A stretch of DNA of 64,000 nt from Balanoglossus misakiensis (GCA_040954595.2 CM082582.2:5006303-5070302), one strand, 5' to 3'; shown: positions 1,032 to 63,959, numbered from the stretch's first letter. The notes: generated by a model not told the origin, from the letters alone. Translations and numbers: made by a program.

Positions 1032-4000
1032 AATGGAGACACACCTTTGCACTTTGCAGCAAGGTATGGCGATGAAGGCCGTGTCAATTTGTTATTGGAA
1101 CACAAAGCTGATGTAACTATACAAAACCAGGTAAAATACCAGCCAGCCTTCTACAGGTTAAATGCTTATCAACACACAATTTGTGTTTGTTTGTTTAAGA
1201 AAACCTCACATTACATTTCACTTTTTGGGACATTGTTCTCATACTCCTCCTAATTACTTACAGAATGGAGACACACCTTTGCACTTTGCGACAAGGTATG
1301 GCGATGAAGGCTGTGTCAGATTGTTCCTGGATCACAGAGCTGATGCTAACATACAAAACAAGGTATATACCAATATGACTTCTACAGCTTAATGCTTATC
1401 AACATATAAACATTTGTTTGTTTGTTTGTTTGTTTGTTTGTTTGTTTGTTTGTTTGTTTGTTTGTTTGTTTGTTTGTTTAAGGAAACCTCACATTACATT
1501 TTAATTTTTGTGACATTGTTCTCATACGCCCCCTTCATTATTTACAGAATGGAGACACACCTTTGCACTTTGCAGCAAGGTATGGCAATGAATACCGTGT
1601 CAATTTGCTATTGGAACACAAAGCTGACGTTAACGTACAAAACAAGGTAAATACAAACCTGACTTCTACAGGTTAATGCTAATCAACACATAAAAATGTG
1701 CTTGTTTTTTAAGGAAACCTCACATTACATTTTAATGTTTGTGACATTGTTCTCATACGCCTCCTTCATTATTTACAGAATGGAGACACACCTTTGAACT
1801 ATGCAGCAAGGTATGGCGATGAATGCCGTGTCAAATTGTTATTGGAAAACAAAGCTGACGTTAACGTACAAAACAAGGTAAATACAGACCTGCTTATAAA
1901 CAATTGTTTGTTTGTTTGTTTGTTTGTTTGTTTGTTTGTTTGTTTGTTTGTTTGTTTGTTTGTTTGTTTGTTTGTTTGTTTGTTTGTTTGTTTAAGGAAA
2001 CCTCACATTAGTAGTAATGACTCTTTATTTTCATTGAAATAGTTAACTTACAATTGTCACTAAAACCCCTAACTGGATGGCAGAATGTTTTGAACGTAAA
2101 TCATGAACGTTTGTGTTAATTTCTTTTTGATGATTTATTGGTTTACTTTTTGAAGCATATATAAGCGCAATATTCATGTACATTAAACCGGGAATTTTTT
2201 GCATCAGGAAATTTCATGCGATATCAAAAGAGTCAACTGTTACAAGACGATAAATTTTTGCGTTCTCGTATTTTATTAATTGCATCGTTATCTGCAAAAA
2301 AAAAAAAACATTTTACGTGACTTTTTATTTTCACGTTTTTCTTTCTCTTGTGCAGTTCGGGGAAAATGTACCGTTTGCAAAATTGTCCCTTTTACAGTAT
2401 TTCGTTTGTTATTTTTGAGTGCATTATGTTACGTAAGTTATAGTCACTGTGCATTTCGTTGTATGAGAATTTCTCACTACATTGTTTCCAGTTTTTGTGA
2501 TATTGTTCTAATGGTGCTCCTTCATTACTTACAGAATTATGGAAACACACCGTTACACTATGCAGCAGGGTCTGGTGATAAAGGCCGTGTCAATTTGTTA
2601 TTGGAACACAAAGCTGATGCTAACTTACAAAACAAGGTAACCTGACTTCTACAGGTTAATGATAATCAACATACAAACATTTGTTTGTTTGTTTGTTTTT
2701 CTGTCTGTCTGTGTGTCTGTCTGCCTGTCTGTTTGTTTGTTTGTTTGTTTGTTTGTTTGTTTGTTTGTTTGTTTGTTTGTTTGTTTGTTTGTTTAAGGAA
2801 AGCTCACATTGCATTTTAGTTTTTGTGACATTGTTCTCATACTCGTTCATTACTTACAGAATGGAGACACACCTTTGCACTCTGCAGCAGGGTCTGGCAA
2901 TGAAGGTCGTGTCAGATTGTTATTGGAACACAAAGCTGATGTAACCATACAAAACAAGGTAAATACCAAGCTGACGTCTACAGGTTAATGCTAATCATAA
3001 TACACATGTTTGTTTATTTATTTGTTTGATTATCTATTTAAGGAAACCTCACATTAAAATTTAATTTTTGTGACATTGTTCTCATTCTCCTTCATCATTA
3101 TTTACAGAGAGGAGACACACCTTTGCACTATGCAGCAGGAAGGTCTGGCGATGAAGACCGTGTCAGATTGTTATTGGAACACACAGCTGATGCCGACATA
3201 CAAAACAAGGTACTGAATACCCTAAATTCTACATGCGCAAATTTGATTGTTTGTTTGTTTGTTTGTTTGTTTAAGAAATCTATACATGGCTTTTCATTTT
3301 TTGTGACATTGTTCTCATTTTTTTCTCCTTCATCATTACTTATAGAAAGGAGATACGCCTTTACACTCTGCAGCAGAGTATGGTGATGAAGGCCGTGTCA
3401 ATTTGCTATTGGAACACAAAGCTGATGCCGACATACAAAACAAGGTAAATACAAACCTGACTTACAGGTTAATGCTAATAAACATATAAACATTTTTGTT
3501 TGTTTGTTTGTTTGTTTGTTTGTTTGTTTGTTTGTTTGTTTGTTTGTTTGTTTGTTTGTTTGTTTGTTTGTTTGTTTGTTTGTTTGTTTGTTTAATAAAA
3601 CCTCACATTACATTTCATTTTTTGTGACATTGTTCTCATTTTTCTCCTTCATCATTAATTAAAGAATGGAGACACACCTTTGCACTACGCAGCAAGGTAT
3701 GGCGATGAAGGTCGTGTCGATTTGTTATTGGAACACAAAGCTGATGCCGACATACAAAACAAGGTAAATACAAACCTGACTTCTACAGGTTAATTCTAAT
3801 CAACATACAAACATTTGTTTGTTTGTTTATTGAAACTCCACATTAATAGTAATAACGCTTTATTTACATTGAAATAGTTAACTTACAATTGTCACTAAAA
3901 CCCCTAACTGGATGGCAGAATGTTTTTAACATAAATCATGAACGTTTGTGTTAATTTCTTTTTGATGATTTATTGGTTTACTTTTCGAAGCAATTATACA

Positions 4001-7000
4001 AGATCAGTATAATTCGTTTGCAATTTTTGAGTGCATTTATCTTACGGAAACGTAAACTGTATTTTGTCGTACGAAGATTCAAGTTACTTCACTTTCACAA
4101 CCTTGCGTTTCAATTTTTGCGATATGTAGTTCTCATACTCCTCCTTCATAATTTACAGAATGGAAACACCCCTTTGCACTATGCAGCAGGGTCTGGCGAT
4201 GAAGGCCGTGTCGATTTGTTATTGGAACATAAAGCTGATGTAACCATACAAAACCAGGTAAATACAAGCTGACTTTTACTGGTTAATTCTTATCAATATA
4301 TAAATACTTGTCTGTCTGTCTGTCTGTTTATGTGTTTATTAAGAAAACCTCACATTAACATTTCAATTTTTGTGACATTGTTCTCATTGTTTTCTTTCAT
4401 AGTGTTGACACCGTTACAATATGCAGCAATGAATGGCATATTATAATGTTTGTTATAAATGGAACCCCACATTATATTTCAATTTGTGTGACATCGCTCT
4501 CATTTTCCTCCTTCATTGCTTACAGAAAGGTGACACGCCATTACACTCTGCAGCATTGTTTGGGGATGAAGGCTGTATCAGATTGTTATTGGACCATAAA
4601 GCCGATGCTAACATACAAAACAAGGTAAATGCAAACCTGACTACTACAGGTTAATCAACATATACAAATTTGATTGTTTGTTTATTTATTTATTTAAGAA
4701 ATCCTCATGTTACTTTGAATCTTCGTGACATTCTCCACCTTCATTACTTACAGAATGGAGACACCTCTCTACACACCGCAGCAAAGTACCAGTATGGTAA
4801 TGAAGCCTGTATCAGATTGTTATTAGAACACAAAGCTGTTGTAACCATACAAAACAAGGTAAATACCAAACCAACTTAATCAACATGCACACATTTGTTT
4901 GTTTAAGGAATCCTCACATTACTTCGCAATTTTTGTGGCATTGTTCTCATGCTCCTCCTTCATTACTTACAGAATGGAAACACCCCTTTGCACTATGCTG
5001 CTGGTTCTGATGATGAAGGCTGTGTCAGATTGTTATTGGAACACAATGCTGGTGCTAACATAAAAAACAAGGTAAATATCAACCTAGTTCAACAGGTTAT
5101 ACTAGCATATCTGTGTTTGTTTGTTTGTTTGTTTGTTTGTTTGTTTGTTTAAGAAATCCTCAAATTACTTTTCAATTTTTATGCCATTTTTTTCATTCTC
5201 CCCCTACATAACTTACAGATTGGAGAAACCCCTTTACACTTTGCGGCAGCAAGGTATGGCTATGAAGGTTGTATCAGATTGTTATTGGAACATAAAGCTG
5301 ATGCTAACATACATAACAAGGTACATATACCAACCTGACTTCTACAGGTTAATGCTTATCAACGTTTACACATTTGTTTGTGTTATTGTTTGTTTGTTTG
5401 TTTGTTTGTTTGTTTGTTTGTTTGTTTGTTTGTTTGTTTGTTAAAAGGAAACCTCACATTACATTTCAATTTTTGTAACATATTGTTCTCATGCTCCTCC
5501 TTCATTACTTACAGAATGGAGACACATCTTTGCACTTTGCAGCAAGGTCTAGCGATGAAGGTCGTGTCAGATTGTTATTGGAAAACAAAGCTGTTGTAAC
5601 CACACAAAACAGGGTAAATACTTCTAGGTTAATGCTAATCAACATTATAAACATTCAAACTCTGCCATTGTGATCACTGACCTCTTCACATGTCGATGTG
5701 TACATTGGTAAAAGTCCAAATGAACAGCCGAAGACCGACAAAATAGGGCCGACACGACACTTCCGCTAACACCAAACCTGACTTCTAAACATGCAAAGAA
5801 CATTACCTGAAGTCGCCAACTATTTAAACTATTTAAAGAAACCTCACAGGCTCACATTGCATTTCAATTTTTGTGGCATTGTTCTCATACTCTTCCGTCA
5901 TCATTACTTACAGAATGGAGACACGCCTTTGCACTATGCGGCAAAGTATGGCGATGAAGGCCGTGTCAATTTGCTATTGGAACACAAAGCGGATGTTAAC
6001 GTACAAAACCAGGTAAATATATCAACCAGACTTCTACAGGTTAATGCTTATCAACATATAAACATTTGTTTGTTTTATTGTTTGTTTGTTTAAGGAAACC
6101 TTACATTACATTTCAATTTTTGTGACATTGTTCTCATGTTCTTCCTTCATTATTTACAGAATGGACACACTCCTTTACATTTTGCAGCAAGGTTTGGTGA
6201 TGAAAGTCGTGTCAGATTGTTATTGGAACACAAAGCTGATGTAACCTTACAAAACAAGGTAAATATCAACCTAATTCTACAGGTCAATCATGGTAATACA
6301 TACATTGTTTGTTTGTTTGTTTGTTTATTTGTTTAAGGAAACCTCACATGCATTTCAGTTTTTGTGACTTTCCCTGATGCTCCTCCTTCATTACTTACAG
6401 AGAGGAGACACACCTTTGCACTATGCAGCAAGGTCTAGCGATGAAGGTCGTGTCAGATTGTTATTGGAACACAAAGCTGATGTTAACATACAAAATAAGG
6501 TAAATGCCAATGTGACTTCAAGAGGTTAATATATCAATATATAAACATTAATGTGTTTTATTTGTTTGCTTTTTGTGTAAGATAAAAACGGATAAAATGA
6601 ATTTGATGATGAAGTTAATAATAAGGACAGTATTGGGGATGCTGTATGGGAGAAAGATCGTGATGATGATGGTGGTGGGTGTGTCATGTGAGAGCTCAAA
6701 GTGGAAACTAAAGATCGTTAGTAATGCATTGTTTTGTTAGTTGTTTTAGTTGCATACACTGTACACATATGCTTTGGAAAATTGAATACGGATTAAAACT
6801 GTTGTGTACGGAGCCCTCATGTCCAAATCAAAGAGGTCCTGCTAATACATGTACACACAAAGTCAGCCATCAGTGACCAAACGTCTTGGGTTGTGTTAAG
6901 TATTAGCACCTGAGGCCGAGTCTATGTCAGTAACATTATTGTTGGCTTTAAAGTGTAAGTGCCTATCAAAATCTCTATCGTAGGAGCATTTTCAAATGTG

Positions 7001-10000
7001 AGACAATATCTGTCTTCCATTCAAAATTGTGCACGGTGACACCTAATTTTTATTCTCAGTTTTAATACTCAGATGATACTTGTTTGAGGCACAGTTTTGT
7101 AGACTACCACCCCAACCACCTCTATTTTTGGTACACATGTACTATGATTTAATCTGCCTTTATATCTTAGGATGGCGACACAGCTCTTCACGTGGTAGCA
7201 GTTGGCAATTCGCCTAGGGAGGACAGGGAAGTAGTGAAACTACTGTTGCAATATGGAGCAGATATTGACTGCAAAAATGGGGTCAGTCTTCTATGTTCCA
7301 ATATTTTATTCCATCACACTTTATTAGGCAGTTTCTCCACATTAATTGAATAAATTTAGTATATATACTTGTGCAATTTATCGAACTGTTTTACCAAAAC
7401 ACTTGTAAAGCAATATGGCCACCCACTGAAAATCTGTGATTAGTTGCATTAGTTTGTCATGTCTTGGCGACGCATGCCATGATAGCTGTGTACTGTTTGT
7501 ATGGAGGCTGATTAAATGGGTGCGACACCATTTAATATATAACGTTTTCAAATTGCAACATACGTCCACAATCGGGCGTCGATGAGATGTTCATGTATAC
7601 CTATCAGTAAACTTATTTCGATGTAGCAATCTAAGTTGCAAAAAAATGAAAATAATGCAAAAAGTGGCGGCTCTAGAGACTTTAATAAAGGTATCATCTC
7701 ATCAATATCAACATCGTAATTGACATCTTACTTGTTTTATCCCAATAAAACTTAGATGGGAAAGACAGCACTTGAGGTCCCTGAAAGTTACAGCTCTGTT
7801 AAGGATGTGCTATTGGATTACATTAGGGTGAGTGAGATGTTTCTTTGTCAATGTCATTAATTTTGATTATTATAACTTGAAATTTGTACCATTTCTTATG
7901 CATTTTGAATTATGGGTACGACCTAAGAATTAAATCTTTAAAATAAACATTTCTCTGTTAATTATCGAGCTAAGAATCCCTCAAAATGTATATTTTCTGA
8001 AAACTTAGATATAGGGAACATTTTTGGTTAAGTGTTAAGTACTTCAGTGTGATCATTATTCACACAACCATCATGTGACCATTTCTCTCAATGTTTTGTT
8101 TGAACGATTTGATATATTCGGCTAAAATTTGTGTGAATGCAAGCTGTCGTAACCGTCATACAAAGTGTGTCTGGGATTTTTTAAACCACTAGATCTATTT
8201 TATACGCATAAAATGTCCATTTTTATCCATTACATATAATTTAATTGTATTTTTAATTGATGATTTCTTTATTCAACAAGAAACGAGACGAGTTCAAGGA
8301 GCTGATGAAGGAAGCAGGTGTGAAATGTGACACTTTTAAGTTGTTCTTCGCTGGATACGGTGGGGTTGGTAAGACTACACTGTTGAAGTCACTTCAGAGG
8401 GTATGTTGGTATTTATTGTTTTGCGTAACAGCTCTAATAAGCTATATCTTGTACATTGTAATTGGGGTTGAGGTTGTATTTTATTTGTTGTTTTGTGCGT
8501 TTTCATTATCCATGTTCCCTAAACTTGAATATTGTAGTTACACTTTTACCGCTATTATTTTGTAAATACATGTACCAGCCATTAAACGGGGAACAAAATT
8601 CCAGCTAACTTTTACATTTCCATGCCAAAAGCTCTATAATCGTCATCTTCGTGGCCATTGTCTATCTGTGCTGTTTTGCCAAGAATTATGCTGTGTCGAT
8701 CCCAGCAATGTGAGCACATGTGAAAGAGATTCAAGTCAGGATTTACTAAGTGGATATTTGCAGAGAGATCATGGAAAATGTAAAAATAAGCTGGCATTTT
8801 GTTCCCATTTAATTAAGACTTAATTTACAAGCATATTGTGCACTATTCAATTGAATTGTGTAATTAGACAGTTTAATGGACTCTGATAACTAGAAATGCT
8901 TTTTTTCTCTCTGATAACTAGAAATGCTTTTTTTCTGTCCTTATATCAAAGACTGAAGAAAAAACCCTGGAAAGTATAGAAAGTGAACACATTCCCACAC
9001 CTGGTATTGATGTCCAAAGTGTTCATATTCCTGACGTAGGAAACGTCAGTGTTTGGGATTTTGCCGGCCAGGCTGAGTATTACGTCACTCATAACATGTT
9101 TCTGGGAGCACCCAATGCTGTCTCTATATTGGTGTTCAAAGCTACAGACGAGAATGGTAAACTCAACACCTTTAAATGTGTGATCAAGGAGGTAAGAATC
9201 TCCACAGTAAATTTTATACTTAACATGATGAGAATGTATATCCACATGTATTGCATTGTTTATGAATTCCCAACAGCAAGTTTCAAGTGTTCGAATTGAA
9301 AGTATTGCTGGAGGGAAAAACTTCTTTTCATGTGCAAAACCATCTTGATTCATGGCATTTTAATAGAGCTATATCCAGATATTCTACCATAGAGGTCTAT
9401 TAGGGAGCTGTCATTATTTATGACCTTGAGGTAGGGGTTGGAGGAATTTTACTAAAAACTAAATTATAATTGAATACCACCCCAGCCAAGCATGCCACTT
9501 GCGGAATCTGAGTACCCCACCAATCTTAAATTACACCCCCTTAACTCTGGAACAACTACATATCCAAACATGCGGTACGAGTCACGTACCACACAATCCC
9601 CCTTCTTCGTCTTTACTTCTTGAGAACCCTCCAAGCTGTAAATAATGACGGCTTTCTTAATTCTCAATCATCACCCATTTCCTGAATCATGAGAAATTGG
9701 GATTCAATTAATGATCCTTTTGCCTAAAAATTAACATTTATAATTTTATGTGTTATTTTCAATTATACAAATATTCTCATTTCTAGATTCAATTTTGGTT
9801 GCGGTTTCTGAAAGGAACAACCCACATGGACCGGTATTCATTTGGTGAGTCAAGGGAAGGATACAAAAAACCAGTGGTGATATTGGTTGCAAGTCGAGCT
9901 GATATGCTGAAGAAAGAATACATGGCTGAAGGTTGGTGTTGTCAGCTCATATGCATATGAACATCTAGCTCGTTGTGGTCAATGCTCTAACTTTGTGTGG

Positions 10001-12955
10001 GTGTGTGTGTGGACACCGTCAATGCGACTCAAAGGATTAATCCTCTATGTTCTCAAATGTCAAGTAGTATCTCTGAAACATTTCTAGTTTTACCCGGTGT
10101 GTGAACATGGTAAGTGATGCGGCGCTTATAAATATACGTTGTTTGTCCACAGACTAGGTTACATATTGCTGCTTGCAAATTGCATTATCTAGTGATTAGA
10201 ACTGCAGTTAATGCAATTAATACCATGTGATAATTTCACAGCACGCCATATGCTCAAGAACGTTCTGACAAAGGCAAAGGAGATGTTTGACGACTATTTA
10301 GACATACCGAGTAACATATTTCTGTTGAATTGCCGTGATTCTACAGACAAGGAAATGAAGAAACTCTGTGACTGTTTACATCAGAAAAAGGTAACAATGT
10401 TTTTTTGTAATCAATTGCCTCTGAATCGTTTAAATGTACAACTACAAGATTCATGAAGAATATACTGCTGAATCCATAAAAACAGAATATCCTCATCATG
10501 TTGTACAAGAATTAATTGATACAAAATTTGAATCTACAAACTTTGAATTTCTACCTTGGTAAAAGATGCATTTTCGGACTCGTTATTACTTTTATTTCAA
10601 GACACCAAGTCCATATATTAAGGTAAATCAAATAGAAAATGCTGACAAATATTCAAACATTGTATTTTCCGAGACAGGAGGGGGAAATGGAATTCATAGA
10701 ATATATAATTGTTTTCTACAAAATTGGAGTATCATTCTATACTCACAAATGATCTTCACTTTGTAGACTATTCCATTTACTGAACATATTATTTGGCTAC
10801 TTTCGATCTTTAATCATGTTATTATTTTCTTTTCATTCCTAGATAGTGAAAACGCTTCCAAGTTTTTGTGCCAAGATAATGGAAATGAAAAGTGGATTAT
10901 GTGACAAGACGTTCCCCGTTCTTTATTGGACAACATATGTGGCAAAAATCAAAGAAAAATATCCCACTATTGACGAAAGTTTCTTGCAAAAAGCCACCAA
11001 CTATCTGCATGACATTGGAGAGGTCAGTATTTAAAAAAAAAACATCTTGCATCTCGCTAATCGTTTATAACCTCTAAAAAAGTCAGAAAAAACACAAACT
11101 TAGTTCAATTATTACCAAAACTATGCCTTGTTTCATGTTTGGTGGCCATCTTGTATTTATCGAAACCCTCAATGGTGCCAAGGTGGCATCATTATGTTTT
11201 GTTAAGGACATGCTATACATGTAATTAAGTAAACTGCAAAAAATGTGCAGACTGTTATTTTGGGTTACGAGGCCTGCCACTGGACTATAATGATTTATCT
11301 AAACCACCCGGTGCCTGCCATATTTTTATGAACTGCATGCTCATTGATATATCAATGTTGGCCACTGTTCTAAATACAGTTGTTGATGAAAAGATTTACA
11401 GAGTGTGTGTTGCATAAAGTAATGTGCAACATATAGATTTTCATTTATCAAAATATTTATTTTCTTGTACATACAGCTTTTGTTTGTGAAGAAGTCATCT
11501 CCTGAAAAGGAAGATGTCGTGGTATTGGATCCAAACTGGTTGTGTTACAGGATATTTGGACCAATGTTGGCTACCCCCTTATTTGCAGAATACAGTTCCA
11601 CATTTGACAGAGATTGTTTTCAGACGATGGACAAGATAGAAGATGTACTCGGTGAAGGTGTAGACAGCAAACTCATCATCGACCTTCTAGAGGATTTTGA
11701 GCTTCTCTATGCACATAGCATCACAAAGACTGGAGAGAAACTTTTCGTCATACCAGGGCTTCAAGACGATGATATGCCTGAAGGTCATTGGGAGAAGAGC
11801 GAAGTGAAGACAATTTACATTGGCAGACGATTTGAATGCCGTGATCAAACGGATTCCTTTACGGCAGGCTTTTTCCCAAGATTACAGACCCGTCTATATA
11901 AGCATTTCACAGAGCTTGGCCAGCCGCCCAGTGGCTTATGGAAAAATGGTATCAAAGTGTGCCATGATGTTGAAGGTCTTGTCTTTATGACTAATGACAG
12001 AAGGGCAGTCAACGTCTGCGTACGAGTTAAAAACAAGAAGTCGATGGGTGAGGGCTACGAGCTTCTTGAGATGGTTTCCAAAGACATACATGATGTCTTC
12101 TCGGTCGCATGTCCAGGCAACAGGATTAATCAGCTTATTCTTAGTGCTGATTCTCTTGCAAACCACAGTGATATAGAAAACTTCGAATTTTACACCCTCG
12201 ATGAGGTGCTTCGTGCAGAAGACATGGGGACGAAAGTGTACAACAAAGAAGTCGGTGAAGCAGAAGATGTTTGTGACCTGCTTTGTCAAGGTCATGACAC
12301 AACAATCTTACAACACCAGTGGAAACGCTGTGATATCAAATGGATGCTTGAAGAAACAAAAAGAAAACTGACCATGAGAATGGACATTCAACGTGCACAA
12401 TCTTTGCACTACGCCTGCATGGCAGAATGGATGGGAATCGGGTACCAGGATGTCAGGGCATTTGAGGAGATGGCGGGTCGAACAGGCATACCAGTTACAG
12501 AATACATCTTTGCAGAGTGGTGTCGTAGATGGGTAGGGACAAGGCGACATCAACGGGGAAAAGACACAGAACTCCCAGCCACTTCTCATGTCACACATGA
12601 TGTTGATAGTGGTTTTGCAACAATGTCACCGTCATCTAAACAACCAGACCCAGGGGTACAATTCCGACGAGAAAACGACACCACTACAGCTGCAGACATC
12701 ACAGCCGTCTCATATGACATAGAAACCTCCGAAGATCATTGTGAGAAAATGTCACACTCGTCAACATCACCTCAACAAGAATCAAGTGAAGAAGTGAAGG
12801 CTCAGAAACCAGCAAGACAGAAGTATCCACATGTACAGGGACCTGTCTTGGAAAGCAACTTTGAGAATCTGTTGGCAATATTCAGCACCATGGGAAGAGA
12901 CGACATGGTCGGATTGATTGAAGAGATGTTCCAGAAATTGGAAGAACGCAGATAG
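1032..12955 (+). CDS. ROCO protein: tandem ankyrin repeats + ROC GTPase + COR + death domain (DAPK-like C-terminus); multi-exon, 5' end not identified
   Basis: 18 ankyrin exons (1032-6499), then 7171-7281 (DGDTALHVVA..GADID), 7756-7827, 8281-8400 (P-loop GYGGVGKTT), 8952-9191 (PTPGID, WDFAGQ.EYY.TH), 9787-9931 (VILVASRAD), 10242-10390, 10843-11022 (YLHDIGE) and 11477-12955 (COR: VVLDPNWLC..IFG, GFFPRLQ, LWKNG; then death domain). All GT-AG with consistent phases; about 1430 aa visible. Confidence 0.9.
2179..2399. mobile_element. Non-autonomous DNA element (TACTGTAAAA...TTTTACAGTA family), degenerate left end
   Basis: Shares GCGATATCAAAAG core and TTTTACAGTA end with copies at 35286-35457 and 58316-58505; absent from the paralogous intron at ~3990-4040. 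Confidence 0.6.
4403..4440 (+). pseudogene. Truncated ankyrin pseudo-exon
   Basis: After a typical array intron and TTCATAG it reads aca ccg tta caa tat gca gca atg aat ggc (TPLQYAAMNG). It then joins the 3' half of the next intron, with no exon 3' half or donor. Confidence 0.7.
9403..9656. mobile_element. Degenerate PIF/Harbinger-like MITE in ROCO intron
   Basis: TTA|GGGAGCTGTCATTATTTA ... TAAATAATGACGGCTTTC|TTA: imperfect terminal inverted repeats with TTA flanks. Confidence 0.5.
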
Positions 12956-14564: not shown

Positions 14565-17500
14565 TCAAATCAAATAATTAACGTTGGGGGCGTCCCGCTC
14601 ACAGTCTTCGTGATCACACACGCAACTTTGTGGAATGGAAGTTGTCTTAGTCAAGCGAACAGCTGATTCGTTGCCTGTGGAAACACAATTACAAGAACAC
14701 AAATGAGTTTTATACTCGTCACAACTTTTTTGCACAACACCAGAAGAAACCATCCCCATGCACACTTTTCATAAATGCAGCGCCCTCATGAAGCAATCAA
14801 AGTGAGGCTTAAGTTGACTAATGAATGTCGGAATTTGACCTCAAATTCACGATGACTACATGAGGGCGCTAGACCTATAAAAGGGGAACGCAAACGAATT
14901 GAAGATTATCACAAAGGATTGTATTTTTAGCTTGTGTTTTTCCTCGAGCAACTGTCGGAATAAAAAAAAAACAATTGAACTTTTCACATTGTAGTGAATA
15001 GTGAATGATTATTATCTACTAAGAAGATTTCATCTATGACGTTTTCCTTTGTAGAATTTGATCCTATGTATTTTTTATCTTATTTCTGTGCACATTCAAT
15101 ATTCTTAGTCGTATATCACTCTACGTCAAGGAAATATCCCGCCTGCCAATCTGATTAAAATCAGATGTAGGGAACGGCGACGTCTTTTACTTACGCTGTA
15201 CGGTATTTCTTATGTTGTACAGTACCGCGCAAGTAAAATACGACGTCGCCGTTCCCTACATCTGATTTTAATCTGATTGCCCGCCTACCTGCTTCCTGCG
15301 AGCCTTCCGTGGGAGTGCACTTGAACTCAACGTCAACAGTTCGAAAACTTGAGGACTTGCAGAGTTTGGGGCAGGTCAGATGTTTTTGTACACTTTGGCA
15401 GTTCATTCCGTCGTGGACCTTTGTCAGGTATTCCACATTTCCTTTGCAACCTACGAAGTAACAAATGACTTTCATTTTCATTCATCAATATTTCTAAATC
15501 CACAATCGCTAACTCGTAGCCGTTTTCAGTAAATTGTGTTGTGTAGTAGTTCGGATACCCGGCCAAAGCACAATGAAATACCCTGTATTTAGCTTTCCAA
15601 ACACATTTTTGTATGCACAGTCATTATTGTTATTGTGGGTACACAAGTCCGGATAAGCATTCATAATACAACTATGATAGTCGTTTACACATAAACGACT
15701 TTTTATTCGCATCACTAGTGAAATTCTGAAAACGGAGTTTGGCATGCCATGTAGATACATTTTGTACCTATGATAATTTAAAACAGCAGAAGTAACACAG
15801 AATTTTCCATGATGGGCCTATAGTCATACATGAACATAATATCACGAATTGTAATGAGGACGAACTGTCATGGCATCGTCGCAAACCACGGCCCTTTTAC
15901 GGCAGCGCTCTGCTCCCCGCAATTTCGATAGTGAAGCGAAAGAAATCCGTAGTCTGGTGGTCGAGAATGTGTCATGGGCGATTAGTCTTGTCCCATGCCC
16001 CATTCCCACCGCTGGCTGCGCTGCTCAAAGCATACGAGGACAGTTCGGCAACTCGATCACTCACTAATACTACTTGGCAATAGCCAATAACGTTTTAACG
16101 GGGTAGAAAGAAACCACACGTTTATCACACTTGCCAGCCGGTTGTAATTTGCTACGTGCAAAAATATAGAATTGATCAAGAACTTTCATGCACTTACTGC
16201 AGCTTTGGCATTCCTTAGTCTCCACGACACGGCAAATCTGGTCGTCGGATTGGTCGCACCAAGCTCGGAGTGTCCGTTCTTGTTTTCCCCGACCGCACTG
16301 AGTGTCGGCACGACAAGCGCTCCATTCTGACGCAGAGACGGCCACACATTCTGTTGGCGAAAACGATGACGTCATCATGATGAAACAAACGTAAATTTTA
16401 CCACTAACAGAACGAAAACAATTTATTTCCCAATTACCGAAAAACAAAAATTTCAGGAAATTTCATTGAAATAAAGTTAAAATAGCAGTTAATTATGAAG
16501 ATGTTTAGTTTTACTTAGTAATCATTAATGACTGCATTTAGTAAAATATTGTAGCTATTAAACATCAGCGAAAGGTCACTGCATGTATACAGGACAGACA
16601 GTAAACGAGTGAGTTACTTGGTTCATGATTTTTACCAAGACCAAAGGAAGCGCAAAATGACTAGTAGGCTAGTCTACCATTCAACGAGAAATGTTAATAA
16701 AGACTCTGACGTGCACGGGGTTGCCTGAGCTGCCACGCTTAAATCTTACCGCTGTTACTGCCCTCATTAACTATTGGTTTCTCATCATCAGTCTCCCTTG
16801 CACCTCGAACACTCTCGTTTGTTGGTCTGTGAAAAGGACGCCGATATATGTTCTATTTATACTATACAATACTTTATGCAAAGTAATAAGAAATAAGGCA
16901 ATCAGTGTTGTCAACGTTACTTTAAACACATAGGGGTGCCAATAATATACCCGACATTTCATGCTTTATGAAGTTGATGAAAACGCAGTTGGAAATTTTT
17001 AAACAATCGTCTAACGGAGCTTGAACTGCATAGTCGCCCGTCAAAGTCTTTCTCTACGAGACTGTGGTCGAGCCAACGACCCGTGCGAGCGGATAGTTGC
17101 ATCATATCATCGATTTCGTCGCAGAAGTTCGAAGTTGGCGATGCATTTCAAAATCAGCAATCATTACTGTGCATTGCAAGTGTACTCGTGTGCGGGTATG
17201 TGTTTGAGTAAATCTTACCCTTTGGGCGTGGCTCTCAGCTGATAGGTGATGTTCAACCCACTGGTGCCGTTTACTTGCCTACACACTCCATCGAAGTCTG
17301 CATAGCCGGTGACGTCAACGCACGACTGGAAAGAAACAGACTCTCAGTATAATACAAACATGGATCTGCGTGCATTAATGTGTAGCACGTATTACATTGG
17401 CGTCACCACTGGTCGAGCTAATACCCAGACAGCGAGATCTTTTGACGGCACATTGAGTTGTATTGTTTGCGACAATTAGAGGTGATATTTTTCAAAAAAT

Positions 17501-19537
17501 CTGAATACATGTTAATTTGTCGCCGTGTATATTTTCAAATTTAGAGTAAGACAAGCGCCTGACACTACTCCACTCTGATGTGTGATACATTTGACATTTT
17601 GTGCTTGACTATCATGGAAATTGTATGTGAGTATGTTGACTCACACTTTGATGGAGGTTTTGGAAACCAATATTCTTGGCCATTTCATCTTCTCCTTCTC
17701 CGTTCCTGCGTTTAAGAAATGAACTAAAGTTGAATCTGAAAATAGAAAAATTAAACATTTTGTTAGTATCGGTGTTAAATTTGGACACATTTATTGGCTT
17801 TCCCGTTAAATTGATTGATTGATTGGCAGACTGACTGATTATTCAGTTAAATCAATCATCCCTCCCTCCTCCCCCTCCCCACTCCGTCCATTCCCCCGTC
17901 TGTCTGTCTGTCTGTCTGTCCGTCCGTCTCTGTCTGCCTGCCTGTCTGTCTGTCTGTCCGTCCGTCTCCCCGTCTGTCTGTCTACGCTCTGGTGACTGAC
18001 TTGGCACCCATGCGTGTATCATGCAAACTTCCCTCGATGACAAATTGCGGAAAAGTAGAAGGATTGTCGGGGTATTTTGCATCTACCAACCTTTTGCTGT
18101 AAACACTCGCTTCATTCAAACTAGTCTGCATATCAAATTTCACCGGATCATACCACACAGATGCGTTCACGGAGAGGTGAGGGAAACCATTGGACGCGTT
18201 GAACTTCAGTCCAGATGATATAAAATGGCCATCTACGCCGATCTTTCCATCGACGAAAGCCCAAAAGCTAGGACAAGATTGATAATGTCATTTAGGGGTG
18301 TAGCCTTTTCAGTATACAAAACGGTGTTACAGTGTTCGCGATCGAAAAATTTTGGTATACACTACTGGTGGTGCTGGTGGTGGCGGTGGTTGCAGAGTTG
18401 GACAATTTTGCTTTATGGTTATGCTATATAAGCAGATGATATAAATATCAGATATAATATATTGATGCTTGACTCTTTCCTTCATAGGAGATGCGAGAGG
18501 GTACATTTCACTCACATTCTTGTGAGACTTCTTACAACTAAATTATTCCAAAATGCAACCGACCAAAGCCGCACTCTTCTTTTCATTGTGTCTGACGACA
18601 GAACTGACCTTGAGTTCAGCTGCGCGACCAGCTGTGACTCTTCAACCTTCAAGTCGCCATCCGCACTGATCATGAACCTGGAGCCCTTGTCCACTCGCGC
18701 CGTGAGCGGGAGACCGAGACTGGTGGGCATCCGGAACGAGGAGTAGTACATCTGGGTTGTCTCGTTGTAGGCCACCGATTGGCCGGCCTGGAGCCCGCGC
18801 AACAGGTGGGCCACCTCGTCGACGGCCTTGTGGGAGAAATACACCTCCTGGCCGAGAATGACCACATAAAAGGACAGCTTGGGTTTGATAACCTCCTGGC
18901 GGCAGATGGAGTCAGATGGGACCTACAAGTAACGACATTTTACATTGTTGAGCAGTGACGCATGTTAAGGGGGCAGGGTCGGGTTCGTTTGATACGAAAT
19001 GTTTTGGCGCGAAAGTACTCTAGCCAATCCAGCCAAATCAATTTTGAGCCTAATGGTGACCATCTTCACTCACGTGAGTAAACTTTGACAAGACAAAGTA
19101 TAAGAAGCGAAAAATTAATGTAATCGAGTCGACGTGCAAGTATGCCACTGGTTGAGCTTTGATTATATGCAGAAAATAGGTTTTAACTTGCCTCTGGTGT
19201 ACACATCAAACCATTCATACCACTGGCGTCCACGTTCGTTACCTCGGCACGCCTGGCGAAAATTCCTTGCCTTCGAAACATACTCAATAAGTAATAGTCG
19301 AAACCCCTGCATGGACGCAAGGACCCGCGTTTGCGGTGGTTCTCGATTCCCTGTTTCAGTGCGCGTAGTTGAGGACCGAGTCCCTCCACACGAAGTCCCA
19401 TCTGTAGTTTGGGAGAATTATTATGGTTAGCAGTGTCGTGTTCAATAGCCCCCAACGGTGAAACTTCACCCAGCCAATTGCAGTGCACCCCAAAGAGGTG
19501 GCGGTTGGTGCGAAATATCTAAAATAAACTAATCATC

Positions 19538-19578
<41 letters not shown>

Positions 19579-20655
19579 GACAACAATAATAATTTTTTTT
19601 CGATCCAGATCACCTCGAACAGATGTGTATCAAATCCCATGACGTCATTCATATCCATGAAGTTCAACTTGATTTCACGCGGCAGGTGGCTGCTCGCGTC
19701 ATAGATCACGTGACTGCCCAGGACACCTGCAACAACGAGTTGGTTAAAAGGTGGTTAGTGTAGAGCTGATGCGAACAACGGTGGCGACAGGGCTTTTAGA
19801 ATGTGAAAAAAAAAATTTCACAAATGAACTCTTGGAAACAACAATTAGAACAGAAAAGTAACCCCAATGTCTTTCTGTGTGACATCTACAATGTAAAGGG
19901 TCCGACGACACTGTTCGTTGCGCAGATTGTGCAATTCATGTCAACGGCAGTTGCGCTAACGACTTAAGTGAAAGTGCAACACGGTTACCTTCTTTTCCCA
20001 AGGACCACGACGACGCAAACGAAGTATTGAACTTGTTTGCTTGCGTTGCAACTGGACACTCGTTTCCGAGGCGACGAAGGACTTCCTCGTAAGTTTGAAT
20101 CCTTACAAGTTGAAGGAATAAAAAAAAAAAACTTTTTGAGTTCAAATAATGAAGTCAGGTCACGTCATTTTGAATTTGCGTCAATATGCAACAATTTACC
20201 CAGTTGCTAAGCGCACCATCGAAACAAATAATGTCGTCTTTACCTACTTTCCTGGCCGGGAAAAAGTGAGTAAGTTTTCATGGACGTGTCCAAATATGAA
20301 CAGATGTAGTTAATCATATCTATATCCTCTTCTGCTTCTAATGTGGGGGTTATCCTGTTCACAATTCCCATGGATGGTTTCAGTTCCATTAGCATGATAA
20401 ACGCTGCTATCCGTATTTCGATTGCATTGGTCCTGTTCTCAAATAACACACTCAGCTGGTTCAAGACCTGCATATTGAGAGGCAAGCGTGTAACGTTAGA
20501 GGTAGAGACATAGAACAAGAGAGACAGACAGGCAGAGAGACAGAGAGAGACAGACAGACAGAGAGACAGACAGACAGACAGAGATACACAGACAGACAGA
20601 GAGACAGACAGACAGAGAGACAGAGAGACACAGAGAGAGAGACAGAGAGAGAGAC

Positions 20656-20718
<63 letters not shown>

Positions 20719-22238
20719 AAACAGACAGATCTCGACAAACGGACAGACAGACAGAATCAAAATGCAACGACAACAGGTAAATCAATTGTTGGGAGACAAC
20801 ATGCGAAAGATGAAAATGAAACCCGAAACTTACTAAACGGAGAGCAGTTACCAATTTCGAAGTATATATTAAAGGACTTAATATCGAATATTACCCATAA
20901 TGCCACGTGCACTGAATGATTTCTCGGTGTGTCGAATGTCATCACTGAGAATCCCTCAGTCGAAGAATGATGGAAACTTTACAAGGAAAGTGGGGGAGAA
21001 CCTTTATTGGCTTTAGAATTACCTTCGTGGTGATTTTGTCAGCAGGCACTTTCCATGGACTGAATATGGCCGTGGCTCTTGTCTCGAGTGTTGGACAGTC
21101 TTTTGCACACTGCATCATGAGAGGCAGGGTGGAAGACAAACCCGTGTTCATCAAACCCTTTATTGCCATCAAGATCTCTTCTTCGTTGTTTTCCTTCAAG
21201 GACTTTGTGAAGAAAGACACTAAGAAATTCTTGGCTTCTTCTATGGTATCCTGAACAGAAGGTGTATAACGTATAGAAAAAAAATCTATCAGCAAATCTT
21301 GCATGTAGCATAGTGTTGTTTATATCGGTTAATAATACATGTACTCCTCTTTTGGCACCGTTTGTGAAAATTTCAAGAATATGACAATATTGTAACGTTA
21401 TTTTCTCAACATCGCTATGGAATGCGATTACCACACACTGCATCCGGGTATTCACCTACCCGAAGCTTCCACACTGTTACTTACCGGCATAGCGTTTTCG
21501 TCGACTTCGTAGTTGGTGACGAAGTTGTAGATCATTGAACCCAGAGTGAGTAAACACTGATCTCGCAGTGATGGCTTGGTGCGAGCGATCGTCTGTCGAT
21601 GACACCAGAAAGGGACACAGTGTGGAGATGGTAGAAGAAGAATATTCAATAACTCGGATTATTGAAAGTATCGTTTGAATTTCTTGGTGAAGACAGCAGT
21701 TATGATCCTTGGGGAAATACACCTGTTTGCTTCTAGCATATCTGTTTGTCATTGTTCCTGTGATACCGGCAGTATTTTCTGTGAATAGTTTGTGTATGTC
21801 TGAATAATGGATAATGGTTTGGTATATTTTTAGGTATCGGCATTAAATATAGAAAATAGCTACAGCTTCTGGAGTGTCGAACTGGTATGCAACATCCTTA
21901 ATCACAATGTTTACAATTAATATTACGGGTTTTACCCACCAAGACATCGTTCACCATTTCACTTGTGGGATTTGTAGCGATCGCAATACCACGAAGGTAA
22001 CGCCTGGCTTGGCTGTCGTCGACCATACTTGAGACGATTTGATCGGCCATCAGTTTGACCGCTACGGATGTGTCTAGGCTTGACAAGACCTCACTGAATG
22101 TGTCCCTGTACATAGAACCAGCATATCAATCGGTGAATCGCGTGAAAAGAACAGCACAAGACGAATATTAACGGCGCCAGTGTCACTACCACCATCACCA
22201 CCACCACCACCACCACCACCACCACCACCACCACCACC

Positions 22239-22316
<78 letters not shown>

Positions 22317-24930
22317 TCACCACTACCACTACCAGAACCGTCATCATTATAATAACAATCTACTACTATGAGAATGAAAAACGTTCCGTTTCATGAATTC
22401 ATTAGAATTGAATACTAGTATTCACCTCGATGCCTTGTCAGCTGTTGAGTATTTCTCATAAATATGCAGAAGTGTGCTGACGTTTGACTTGCGAAGTGTC
22501 GTCACCAGGTTCATGAACAAAGCTGGCTCCTTGATGTTCGGATAACGGCCATGTTTGATTTCCCAGATGTACTCTGTCATCAGCTTGTCAAACTATTCGG
22601 CGAAGATAAGAACACAACGTTTGTTTCCAACATACGAAGATGCAAAATGAGAGATGCTGCTCATTTACATAACAATCAAACCCTCAAACATTTATGTATG
22701 CTGTCTCGACACAAACCACTATAGCCAGCTTTTTTTGCTGATGTGCCCAGTTTTGACTAGATAGACGCTTTTAAACAAGCAAGTTTCCACTGCCAAACAC
22801 GATTCACACATTCTCAACAGTCACTATGTATTTTACCTTTGGGAAAGATATTTGCTCGGGGTCGACATCTGTCTGAGGTTTTACTTCAGCTGCGAGTTCC
22901 GCAGTTAGAGTACGTGAAGGCCAGTCTGGTTTTTCTGAAATCAAGAAACATTCACGTTATCAATGTTATCTATTATTTCCTCAGTTCATAAAAAATACGT
23001 ATGTGTTTAGTCAATAGTCGCAAACTTCCACAAATGCAATCAATCCGTCAATGGTTAGCCGATTACGGGACTATTGGAATTTGCTTGCAAATAATTCAGG
23101 ACTGTCTTAAACGTTTCCCCAAATTTGGCTCAAGGCAATTTTATGCTATTTTACTTAAATTTGCGAATAACAATTGGATTCAAATTGTGTCAAATTTGAA
23201 ATTTAAAACGTCCACCAATCTTTGCGTGGTAACCTCTAAGTAGTGGTTTGTATGCAAACTACACAGGAAACATTTTGCGTTGTTTTCAAAAAGACTACCC
23301 ACACTTATGCAGAGATTTGAAAGGGTTTGGAGGACTGTCATTTTATACTGAAGATCTTTCCGCGAGGGGCATACTACCTTTAAAGCGTCACCATATTAGA
23401 TTAATTACCTGCTAACGATGAAGAAGTGGGAACAGCGGTCACCAGTTTCAGAGTTTGTCTAAACACAGGCGAAACAAGACAGAATTACAGATAAATCTCT
23501 CAGGACTCCAAATATAAGAAAAGATAGCAAAGCATTATTTTTGTTACTTATAAAATATGGCTAAAAAGAACATGTGGCTATCATACTCTACCATGTTGTG
23601 TACAGCTAATGCGAAGGTCATCATGTTAGCGTAAATGCGTGAACAGTTTATTTCCACAGAGATGCAATATAGCAAATACAGTACACCCTCTATGTGCACA
23701 GATGTACCTGTATACCTTGCATTGATGGCGAGTGCCCTGTTGGCGAAAAGACCTGACAATGATCTGTTACCTGTTCAAATCAAATGAAGATTAATTTACC
23801 TCACAGTCGTGTTGGACGTCATGACAAGGCGGCTGTCCCGATCAATTTCGTGATCAAAGAGATAATACTCTTCTAACTCGACGTCTTTTATAGCCTTGTT
23901 GCTGTAAATGCCACTTTCCGATTCCAACAATGCCATGGTGATGACAGTTCTGCTGGCCGATGTAAATTTTTCTGGCTGAGAACACAGACAAGAGCAAAGT
24001 ATAATTTTATGTTGCGTGAGTGGAATACGTTTAAATGTACACAAATCAAATCATGCAAAACCGCTAGTTTTCCATCTGTGACAGTGAATAAAGCTGTCGT
24101 GAAATCAAATTGTTCCCGTAAAGGGCAACGATCGTCTTATGCGCATGTGCAATACCAGAGACTCTGGTTAAAAAAAAAACTGTATACAGTCAATGCCATA
24201 AGGCAGTGTGCCGATGTCCCAACAACAGCGCTGACCATAGTCGAACGCACAATCTGCACAACATTTGGATTTAACGTAATGTTTATACACGTGATATACG
24301 CACATGTGCATAAGACGATCACCGGCCTTTAAAGCGCGTAGCTCATCTCACGCGTATGCGCGTAACTTCCCAGCAAATTTTCCGTTCGATGCATTCAAAT
24401 AGTGGACTGCCTTCGCTTCCTTCCATATTTCATGCGCACCGTATAAGTAGATTCTGGTTTTGTCCCTCCTTTTCACCCAATTTGCTGTCTTTACATACCC
24501 GATCTCCGACACAGATTATGGTCACCGCCATCTTCTCTGTTGTTAGGACAGAGCACTGCCTTATGGGATTGACTGTTCACTAAACGTCTGTAACCAGCGG
24601 CTACAGCTGGAACATGCGTGTGAGACGAGCTACGCGCTTTAAAAACAACAAAAAGGACAACAACACAACGCGTACCATAGCTAGGCAACTTCTCCCAGGC
24701 AGAGTACAGTTCACCACAGAAGTGTATTTTGTGCACTGTTTCGGGTCTTTGGTTTTAGTCAGTGTGACTTGGAATAAGTCATCGTCGTTCAGTTTCGCTG
24801 TGTAATTCACCATACAATCGCCAGTAACGTCACCCTGAAATACACAGAAATGTATGGGCGAATTAATAGACACATGCTTGTATATATGTACATGTATATA
24901 TAAAATGTATACTGGCAATATCCTATATAT

Positions 24931-24997
<67 letters not shown>

Positions 24998-39814: not shown

Positions 39815-40460
39815 TCTCGGTGTTTTCGTTTAGTGTATCTATCCCAGGCGATCAGAGATTCGAAACCGGGGAGAGGAGTTCCTCACACAAACTCTCTCCA
39901 AAGTAAAACGACAAAGCCTCACCACGGCCAGGAAATGACCTCACGATAAGAAACGAGGTCACGTGTGCTTTTATTAACAGACTGTAGGTTCGTCTTGACG
40001 TAAATTTCTTACAAACTTCTTCTCTATGTATATAAATAATATTTGTTGATAATTTTGTATTTTTTTATATTCAATGTTATATTTAAAATCCACCATGCGG
40101 ACAATTTTGAATGTCATAAACAAATATGGATTGTTTTAGGGATGAACCATTATGGTATACCGGGGTCTAGAATAAAGCTTTAACTAGAATAAAGCTTTAA
40201 TAAAAGTTATGCTATCTTTTTTTCTGAAATATTCAGTCTATCGATACAATTTGCGCTATGACGTTCTTTTTAACGGTAAAAGGAAAAATGTTTTCTGTCA
40301 AGTTTAACTACCAAATTATAGTATCTTCCCCAGATATTCATCCAGTCCCCCTCCCTATAATTATATTGGTCACTCCTTAGCATTATGCAGCTCCGGGGGT
40401 TAAAAGGTCAGCTTGGACACGTGATCACCACCGCGGGAAAAGTTTGGATTTTAATTCAAG

Positions 40461-51239: not shown

Positions 51240-63959
<12,720 letters not shown>

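What the first reader, a model, noticed from the sequence alone, without database searches (positions are those of the whole stretch)
1032..12955. Candidate variable immune receptor: array of interchangeable ankyrin exons joined to a ROC-COR-death signalling module
Seen: 18 intact single-repeat ankyrin exons, all phase 0-0, separated by homologous introns. They are followed by a divergent capping repeat and constant ROC, COR and death-domain exons, so any subset of exons can be skipped, duplicated or exchanged without a frameshift. Known: brown-algal (Ectocarpus) ROCO genes encode LRRs one per exon and were proposed to diversify by exon shuffling; vertebrate DAPK1 has only about 8 ankyrins. 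Inference: an animal ankyrin-based equivalent, with a variable sensor, a GTPase switch and a death-domain output, diversified by splicing and/or unequal crossover.
Basis: partly seen in the sequence, partly recalled or inferred. Interest (0 to 1): 0.9.

Follow-up and report, generated by a model that had tools for sequence, protein, structure and literature searches.

The report
Acorn-worm ankyrin-cassette ROCO death sensor
This gene, likely from an acorn worm, strings 18 near-identical, in-frame mini-exons (one ankyrin binding repeat each) in front of a GTPase switch and a predicted death domain, and is likely one copy of an overlooked, multi-copy family of animal cell-death sensors whose binding end would be varied by swapping repeat units; an immune role is untested.

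Summary
Observation confirmed. Eighteen intact phase 0-0 ankyrin exons with homologous introns join a cap, ROC, COR and a death domain (split by about 100 residues) in one open 1430-codon frame; no start codon or kinase was found in the window. The gene is a kinase-less, DAPK-related ROCO nested in a hemichordate clade. It is multi-copy: relatives carry 2-22 repeats and end in death, CARD, caspase, GT4 or trypsin domains. Intron-less contigs from a likely RNA run show paralogues spliced at five modelled constant junctions and ankyrin-to-ankyrin. Two amphioxus RefSeq isoform pairs differ by exactly 1 and 3 repeats in the same register. The repeat framework is under purifying selection and the units look mosaic (PHI p about 0.03), but binding-face positions vary no more than other surface positions. 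Skipping in this copy, copy-number polymorphism and immune function are not shown. Best reading: an NLR-like sensor-switch-effector diversified mainly by germline unit exchange (0.55). It works like brown-algal ROCOs and fungal HIC NLRs. Ten literature searches found no description of this animal family as such. The scan noted a similar gene in a mussel (e1-9532795).

The parts
1032..1130 (+). ankyrin exon A1 (99 nt, phase 0-0)
   Evidence: Pfam Ank 6.7e-10
1264..1362 (+). ankyrin exon A2 (99 nt)
1548..1646 (+). ankyrin exon A3 (99 nt)
1779..1877 (+). ankyrin exon A4 (99 nt)
1990..2173 (.). intron block after A4, 91% identical over 185 nt to the block after A9 (3825-4009): trace of a multi-unit duplication or conversion
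2535..2636 (+). ankyrin exon A5 (102 nt)
2860..2958 (+). ankyrin exon A6 (99 nt)
3108..3209 (+). ankyrin exon A7 (102 nt)
3346..3444 (+). ankyrin exon A8 (99 nt)
3665..3763 (+). ankyrin exon A9 (99 nt; AAG acceptor)
4159..4257 (+). ankyrin exon A10 (99 nt)
4340..4440 (+). degenerate, truncated unit (intron leader plus a partial ankyrin exon ending in a stop)
   Evidence: nhmmer 4408-4437, E 0.02, and translation
4526..4624 (+). ankyrin exon A11 (99 nt)
4754..4858 (+). ankyrin exon A12 (105 nt)
4973..5071 (+). ankyrin exon A13 (99 nt)
5219..5320 (+). ankyrin exon A14 (102 nt)
5515..5613 (+). ankyrin exon A15 (99 nt)
5914..6012 (+). ankyrin exon A16 (99 nt)
6160..6258 (+). ankyrin exon A17 (99 nt)
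6401..6499 (+). ankyrin exon A18 (99 nt)
7171..7281 (+). divergent (capping-side) ankyrin exon, 111 nt, phase 0-0, non-homologous introns
   Evidence: (Ank 8.2e-9)
7756..7827 (+). terminal half-repeat/linker exon, 72 nt, phase 0-0 (predicted)
   Evidence: comparable TPL/TAL half-repeat before ROC in relatives
8281..8400 (+). ROC exon 1 with P-loop GYGGVGKT
   Evidence: donor matched by X3 joints
8952..9191 (+). ROC exon 2 with TPGI and WDFAGQ motifs
   Evidence: Pfam Roc 6.5e-7; joints on both sides in X3
9787..9931 (+). ROC exon 3 (SRAD motif), phase 0-1
10242..10390 (+). ROC end, phase 1-0
10843..11022 (+). COR-A exon, phase 0-0
11477..12955 (+). last exon: rest of COR-A, COR-B, death domain (about 12332-12952) split by a ~100-residue low-complexity insertion, stop codon
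   Evidence: GT..AG joint 11022/11477 in 3 X3 contigs

Best explanation
The locus is one copy of a multi-copy ankyrin-ROC-COR-death gene family, likely kinase-less and from an acorn worm, whose protein likely works as an intracellular sensor-switch-effector: the ankyrin rod would bind a ligand, ROC-COR would act as a GTP-dependent oligomerising switch, and the predicted death domain would recruit cell-death or inflammatory adaptors. The sensor likely diversifies mainly in the germline. A unit of about 230 bp (intron leader, 99-nt exon, intron tail, usually a TTTG-type run) would be duplicated, deleted and converted by unequal exchange within and between paralogues, always in frame. Exon skipping is possible as a second layer. 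Shown: anatomy, purifying selection on the framework, many relatives with 2-22 repeats and swapped effectors, spliced paralogues. Inferred: ligand sensing, immune role, exchange mechanism, absence of a kinase upstream of the window.
For: Open 26-exon frame and domains. Framework ratio 0.21, p<1e-4; 18 of 18 exons stop-free against a neutral expectation of 1.5e-3 to 3e-5 (broken units would be undercounted). Identity to consensus 0.815, above the 0.7 HIC cut-off of PMC13449251. Star-like unit tree, no correlation between flank and exon similarity or with array position, PHI p 0.028 and 0.037, and a 185-nt intron block shared after A4 and A9. Each long-array relative is homogenised on its own: within-protein identity 0.55, 0.65, 0.48, 0.86 against 0.42, 0.28, 0.42, 0.61 to the best other protein; DAPK 0.34. 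Repeat counts of 2-22 in 22 of 24 relatives tested. Of 35 relatives chosen from the 150 listed, 15 carry Death, 7 CARD, 3 caspase, 1 GT4, 1 trypsin, 2 Fn3-like and 1 a kinase; the same variable-effector logic is described for bacterial LRR-AP-GTPase conflict systems (PMC8195603). The tree puts the gene in a 16-row clade (99) whose named members are all hemichordate, with 7 Ptychodera and 4 Saccoglossus rows. DNA runs lay 1794 and 2507 contigs on the gene, most 85-95% alike. X3 has two different sequences at one splice junction, so at least two paralogues are spliced. Amphioxus isoform pairs differ by 33 and 99 residues in the same register.
Against: No significant diversifying selection: binding-face ratio 1.2-2.1 (p 0.47 and 0.25 against neutral), other surface positions 1.7, Fisher p 0.77. 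This differs from brown-algal ROCOs, where positively selected sites lie on the binding face. The recombination signal is weak (p about 0.03, short alignment). None of 3 hemichordate RefSeq isoform pairs differs by ankyrin repeats. No inverted intronic exons as in Ectocarpus. The death domain is divergent, misses Pfam and Foldseek thresholds and carries a long insertion that may affect its interactions. All three runs are one sample, probably the assembly's own, so they say nothing on polymorphism. No functional data exist for any member.
Confidence: 0.55

Rival explanations
1. Same gene and same exchange mechanics, but no sensing of non-self: a DAPK-derived scaffold or cell-death regulator whose ankyrin rod grew by nearly neutral tandem duplication, with surface residues simply drifting.
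For: Binding-face and other surface positions vary alike and not above neutral. Microsatellite runs of 20 nt or more in 11 of 17 inter-unit introns offer a mechanical cause of unequal crossover. 99-nt phase-0 ankyrin exons also occur in housekeeping genes (recalled).
Against: Does not explain the repeated lineage-specific expansions or the swapping of death, CARD, caspase, GT4 and trypsin effectors on one core, both typical of conflict systems.
Confidence: 0.25
2. Diversity is mainly somatic and combinatorial: one locus yields many isoforms by skipping subsets of the 18 exons, Dscam-like.
For: All exons are phase 0-0 with near-identical splice signals. Ankyrin-to-ankyrin joints exist in X3. 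2 of 11 isoform pairs compared differ by whole repeats, both from amphioxus.
Against: The X3 contigs differ from the window and come from paralogues, so apparent skips cannot be assigned to this copy. RefSeq isoforms are models, and short reads mis-map among repeats. 0 of 3 hemichordate pairs skip repeats. Introns are short (114-657 nt) and no inverted pairing elements were seen in the array.
Confidence: 0.12
3. It is the 3' part of an ordinary DAPK1 orthologue whose kinase exons lie upstream of the window.
For: The start codon was not found in bases 1-1000. ANK-ROC-COR-death order, and a long last exon like DAPK1's (1233 coding nt in exon 26; PMC12408332). The hemichordate-centred alignment matches Trichinella DAPK from ankyrins through COR with probability 100.
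Against: A DAPK-type kinase occurs in only 11 of 182 stored proteins, 10 of them one Trichinella cluster. The nearest relatives begin with ankyrins. Branches of support 97 and 99 separate the gene from DAPK in a quick, midpoint-drawn tree. None of 17 longer relatives lists a kinase family.
Confidence: 0.05
4. The array is an assembly artefact or a young pseudogene.
For: Highly repetitive; no listed contig spans the whole gene; one unit is degenerate.
Against: All 18 units are distinct (75-93% nucleotide identity). Unique DNA contigs match the window with 0-3 differences, one of them bridging A18 to the cap exon (6466-7506). Purifying selection and an open 1430-codon frame.
Confidence: 0.03

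Closest known systems
Brown-algal LRR-ROCO genes (Ectocarpus, Saccharina; PMC3341825, PMC11378527)
   Same: ROC-COR switch behind an N-terminal repeat array, one repeat per symmetrical exon, multigene family, variable repeat number, inactivated exon copies in introns; proposed immune receptors.
   Different: Ankyrin (99 nt, phase 0) instead of LRR (72 nt, phase 2); animal and DAPK-related, so convergent; C-terminal death domain. No inverted exons and no significant positive selection here; splicing variants shown there, not here.
DAPK1 / dapk-1
   Same: ANK-ROC-COR-death order, homologous ROC-COR, COR-B and death domain in one long last exon.
   Different: No kinase in the window or in close relatives; at least 19 homogenised repeats against eight in DAPK1 (PMC12408332); multi-copy; split death domain; separate clade in the tree.
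Fungal NLRs with high internal conservation (HNWD and ANK/TPR types; PMC13449251)
   Same: Near-identical repeats (0.815 against a 0.7 cut-off), nucleotide switch, death-related effector, signs of repeat exchange.
   Different: ROC GTPase, not a STAND ATPase; reversed domain order; the exchanged unit is an exon plus intron; hypervariable selected sites and length polymorphism not shown.
Bacterial LRR-AP-GTPase(ROC)-COR conflict proteins (PMC8195603)
   Same: Repeat sensor, ROC-COR, and a variable C-terminal effector position that includes GT4.
   Different: Prokaryotic, LRR-based, intron-less; the paper's passages I saw do not describe an animal ankyrin version.
RefSeq 'DAPK1-like' models of Ptychodera, Saccoglossus, Glandiceps, Branchiostoma, Asterias, Amphiura, Anneissia, Lissotriton
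   Same: True homologues; 36-50% identity over the last exon for the hemichordate ones.
   Different: Automatic annotations only; most models have fewer repeats and other effectors; their exon structure was not seen directly.

Membership tests
ROCO proteins | ROC GTPase domain with G-motifs | tested here: met
   Pfam Roc 6.5e-7 above cut-off; motifs GYGGVGKT, TPGI, WDFAGQ, SRAD in order (their G1-G4 labels are recalled)
ROCO proteins | COR domain directly after ROC | tested here: met
   Pfam COR-B 1.7e-8; Foldseek to Chlorobium COR 3dpt E 6.1e-10
ROCO proteins | GTP binding, hydrolysis and dimerisation | not testable with these tools
   needs biochemistry
Death-domain proteins | six-helix death fold | tested here: met
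   model helices 7-18, 26-33, 38-51, 55-78, 177-186, 190-206; top 14 VIA rows are death domains, best Z 11.8, rmsd 1.7; Pfam and Foldseek below threshold
DAPK1 orthologues | N-terminal Ca/calmodulin-regulated kinase | tested here: inconclusive
   none in the window or in close relatives, but the 5' end lies outside or was not found
DAPK1 orthologues | eight ankyrin repeats | tested here: not met
   at least 19 against eight (PMC12408332)
DAPK1 orthologues | groups with kinase-bearing DAPK in a ROC-COR tree | tested here: not met
   quick tree, 47 rows, SH-aLRT 97 and 99 branches separate it from P0116; no outgroup and no clade test
Exon-shuffling ROCO receptors (brown-algal type) | one repeat per frame-symmetric exon in a tandem array | tested here: met
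   18 of 18; ankyrin rather than LRR
Exon-shuffling ROCO receptors (brown-algal type) | multigene family with variable repeat number | tested here: met
   relatives' counts come from gene models that may be incomplete
Exon-shuffling ROCO receptors (brown-algal type) | positive selection on the binding face | tested here: inconclusive
   ratio 1.2-2.1, not significantly above 1, same as other surface positions; 18 short sequences give little power; binding-face positions taken from recalled DARPin design
Exon-shuffling ROCO receptors (brown-algal type) | alternative splicing of repeat exons | tested here: inconclusive
   joints in X3 not assignable to this copy; 2 of 11 isoform pairs, both amphioxus
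Exon-shuffling ROCO receptors (brown-algal type) | inactivated or inverted exon copies in introns | tested here: inconclusive
   one degenerate same-strand unit, no minus-strand copy
NLRs with high internal conservation | STAND ATPase (NACHT or NB-ARC) | tested here: not met
   the switch is ROC; only P-loop-level scores below cut-off to NB-ARC and NACHT
NLRs with high internal conservation | repeat similarity Psim >= 0.7 | tested here: met
   484 of 594 residues match the consensus, 0.815, inserted residues left out
NLRs with high internal conservation | repeat-number polymorphism between individuals | not testable with these tools
   only one sample available

The most novel reading that the evidence does not exclude
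Deuterostome invertebrates (and some amphibians) keep an unrecognised NLR-parallel receptor family, ankyrin sensor / ROC-COR switch / swappable death-fold or enzyme effector, in which ankyrin exon cassettes are recombined between genes and skipped in transcripts to build a natural DARPin-like library for recognising pathogens or non-self.
Probability: 0.3. Interest if true: 0.85.

Novelty: new variant of a known kind. Interest (0 to 1): 0.62.

Why it matters
Acorn worms, echinoderms and amphioxus are the closest invertebrate relatives of vertebrates and lack rearranging antigen receptors. A DAPK-related, kinase-less ROCO family with a cassette-built sensor and exchangeable death, CARD, caspase or GT4 outputs would add a GTPase-switched counterpart to NLRs in animals and a second, convergent case of the exon-per-repeat design proposed for brown algae. 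These genes are now hidden under 'DAPK1-like' labels. The locus makes the question testable, because its 18 distinct units can be counted and ordered in long reads.

Tried and rejected
No whole genome is held for this window, so paralogues could not be counted or their exon structure read. The run search listed no holder on record as RNA. In the likely RNA run X3, no listed joint links the array to the cap exon, or the cap and linker exons to ROC; cover there is sparse, so this is no evidence either way. Summed contig depth over the gene is tens of times that of unique contigs, but the tool states that it is not a copy number, so no count is given. Joints in X1/X2 that jump between units (for example 3828 back to 1184 or 3035) may come from paralogues or short ambiguous contigs and were not used. 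PDB sequence search of the last exon: 0 hits. ESM Atlas on the C-terminal part: no usable hit. Foldseek on the death-domain model: nothing at E<=0.001, 3 of 13 weak rows were death domains. Search of bases 1-1000 with 14 relatives' N-termini: no hit better than E 0.13; two tiny ATG-GT candidates (588-599, 652-663) are unsupported. No second ROCO gene or ankyrin exon elsewhere in the window. The careful tree did not finish; the quick tree was used and P0015 was dropped for short coverage. The regular-expression repeat counts missed many repeats, so (profile) is used for counts; it found none in P0166 and P0021. No complex prediction was run. PMC2575513, PMC6321704 and PMC2289074 held nothing on this family by term search. 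One search did not verify the DARPin positions.


Full report
1. Observation. A scan for AG..GT exons with ankyrin motifs finds 18 between 1032 and 6499, all phase 0-0 and stop-free: 14 of 99 nt, 3 of 102 and 1 of 105. A divergent ankyrin exon (7171-7281), a 72-nt linker exon, four ROC exons, a COR-A exon and a 1479-nt last exon follow; the 26 exons give 1430 codons without a stop. Pfam on single exons supports Ank, Roc and COR-B but not Death. An AlphaFold model of the last exon (pLDDT 82) matches COR structures (3dpt, E 6.1e-10). A model of the C-terminal 207 residues has six helices around a disordered stretch; Foldseek gave nothing significant, but the top 14 VIA-align rows are all death domains, best Z 11.8, rmsd 1.7, 91 of 93 aligned. 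The tool warns that Z below 13 can be unspecific for helical folds; the uniform hit list and a profile test (11.0 bits, above 1000 of 1000 shuffles) make the assignment firm. No start codon or kinase was found in the window.

2. The repeated unit. Each unit is an intron leader of about 75 nt, the exon, an intron tail of about 55 nt and usually a TTTG-type run (20 nt or more in 11 of 17 introns). Mean identities are 78%, 83% and 72%; the cap exon's flanks are not homologous (51%). All 18 repeats differ, at 71% mean amino-acid identity and 0.815 to consensus. The unit tree is star-like, similarity of flanks and exons is uncorrelated and unrelated to array position, and PHI gives p 0.028 (whole unit) and 0.037 (exon). 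A 185-nt intron block recurs after A4 and A9 at 91%, and a degenerate unit lies near 4340-4440. This fits birth, death and exchange of units, though the recombination signal is weak.

3. Selection. Counting minimal steps per codon, the 18 framework positions have 12 nonsynonymous and 24 synonymous steps (ratio 0.21, p<1e-4), so the exons are maintained as protein. The seven putative binding-face positions (taken from recalled DARPin design, not verified) have 20 and 4 (ratio 1.23; 2.07 for six of them), more than the remaining positions (Fisher p 0.011) but not above neutral (p 0.47) and not different from the eight other surface positions (20 and 3; p 0.77). The two most variable positions, 11 and 8, are on that face, and there are 15 distinct face patterns among 18 repeats. 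Diversifying selection is therefore neither shown nor excluded.

4. Family. The best database matches are hemichordate: Glandiceps XP_077996865 and Ptychodera XP_070546951, XP_070546715, and Ptychodera XP_070549583 at 50%. The source is thus likely an enteropneust (inference). The wide search gave 238 proteins at E<=0.001, 150 listed. I scanned 35 of them, mostly the longer ones: 15 carry Death, 7 CARD, 3 caspase, 1 GT4-conflict, 1 trypsin, 2 Fn3-like, and only one (Trichinella DAPK) a kinase; an amphioxus member has CARD, a C-terminal kinase and a caspase. A DAPK-type kinase was found in 11 of 182 stored proteins. A quick ROC-COR tree (47 rows, SH-aLRT, midpoint-drawn, P0015 dropped) places the gene beside Ptychodera P0164 (99) in a 16-row clade (99) whose named rows are all hemichordate, inside a 40-row clade (97) with amphioxus, echinoderm and newt members and apart from DAPK. 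Repeat counts run from 2 to 22 in 22 of 24 relatives, though gene models may be incomplete, and long arrays are homogenised gene by gene.

5. Reads. Three coded runs of one sample hold the gene; it may be the assembly's own sample, so they are not independent. X1 and X2 give contigs identical or nearly identical to the window across introns, one bridging A18 to the cap exon, plus 1794 and 2507 laid contigs mostly 85-95% alike, which points to many paralogues. X3, labelled DNA by guess, has intron-less joints where X2 has unbroken introns, so it is likely RNA. Of 10 joints listed, 5 fit the model's constant junctions (8400/8952, 9191/9787, 9931/10242, 10390/10843, 11022/11477; the third only approximately, the fourth 3 nt short), 4 join one ankyrin exon to another and 1 is intronic. 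Two different sequences at the first junction, both unlike the window, show at least two spliced paralogues. Because these contigs differ from the window, apparent skips cannot be assigned to this copy.

6. Splicing in relatives. Of 11 isoform pairs compared, two amphioxus pairs differ by exactly 33 and 99 residues, with breakpoints that fit the window's exon boundary (XP_066285385/386; XP_078594975/978); 0 of 3 hemichordate pairs do. This suggests a shared intron position and possible skipping, but RefSeq isoforms are models.

7. Mechanism. Shown: anatomy, framework constraint, family size, effector swapping, spliced paralogues. Inferred: the ankyrin rod binds a ligand and relieves or triggers the ROC-COR switch, which oligomerises and presents the death domain to adaptors; homologous introns let unequal crossover and conversion add, drop or swap repeats in frame. 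I put this at 0.55, a non-immune scaffold with drifting repeats at 0.25, mainly splicing-based diversity at 0.12, a kinase-bearing DAPK at 0.05 and artefact or pseudogene at 0.03.

8. Literature. PMC3341825 (passages) and PMC11378527 (first of six parts plus passages) describe exon-per-LRR ROCOs with positive selection and splice variants in brown algae. PMC13449251 (abstract and passages) describes HIC NLRs and repeat exchange. PMC8195603 (passages) describes bacterial LRR-AP-GTPase-COR proteins with variable effectors including GT4. PMC4104024 (passages) notes 17 Trichoplax ROCOs with CARD, death, TPR and LRR domains. PMC5094078 and PMC11463336 (passages) mention single ROC-containing TIR and caspase genes. 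PMC12408332 (passages) gives DAPK1's eight ankyrins and exon 26. Searches (listings) showed no paper describing a kinase-less ankyrin-ROC-COR family with exon cassettes in animals; the library lacks most subscription journals and I read no supplements, where such architectures may be listed. That ANK1 and DAPK1 also use 99-nt phase-0 ankyrin exons is recalled, not checked.

9. Verdict. A real, intact gene; a member of the ROCO family, not a DAPK1 orthologue on the tests run and not an NLR, but built like one. New variant of a known kind. Interest 0.62.

Noticed in passing
P0054 / P0190 (Lissotriton helveticus XP_078534021, XP_078534014): A newt protein with ANK-ROC-death and no kinase falls inside the same 40-row clade, so the family may persist in amphibians.
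   Followed up: partly
P0012, P0035, P0036, P0038, P0048, P0031: Amphioxus and echinoderm members fuse the ANK-ROC-COR core to CARD+kinase+caspase, GT4-conflict glycosyltransferase, CARD+caspase, CARD+death or death+caspase; P0038 is unnamed and lacks the N-terminal part.
   Followed up: partly
window exon 11477-12955, about residues 366-444: All hemichordate relatives aligned have a loop between death-domain helices 4 and 5; it is about 15-30 residues in most, about 60 in the nearest Ptychodera pair and about 100 here.
   Followed up: partly
P0191-P0207: Very long (1633-4045 aa) ankyrin-ROC proteins without a listed kinase from ENA/JGI assemblies; origin not examined.
   Followed up: no
window 15147-15279: 38-nt inverted repeat, 97% complementary, 57 nt apart; MITE-like.
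   Followed up: no
window 2205-2340, 7444-7685, 10002-10099: High-copy dispersed repeats inside introns; the first also matches 35313-35375 and 58410-58495.
   Followed up: no
window 18512-26116 (-): Vitellogenin/large lipid transfer protein exons (Pfam Vit_open_b-sht, Vitellogenin_N).
   Followed up: no
window 29808-30218 (-), 40455-43874 (+), 48758-49723 (-): Ordinary neighbours: AIG2-like (gamma-glutamylcyclotransferase type), CDT1 and FAM69/DIPK exons. The ROCO gene is not in a tandem cluster on its 3' side within this window.
   Followed up: no
P0183 / P0006 and P0005 / P0003: Ptychodera isoform models that skip in-frame ROC exons, one removing the P-loop; if real they would be switch-dead variants.
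   Followed up: no
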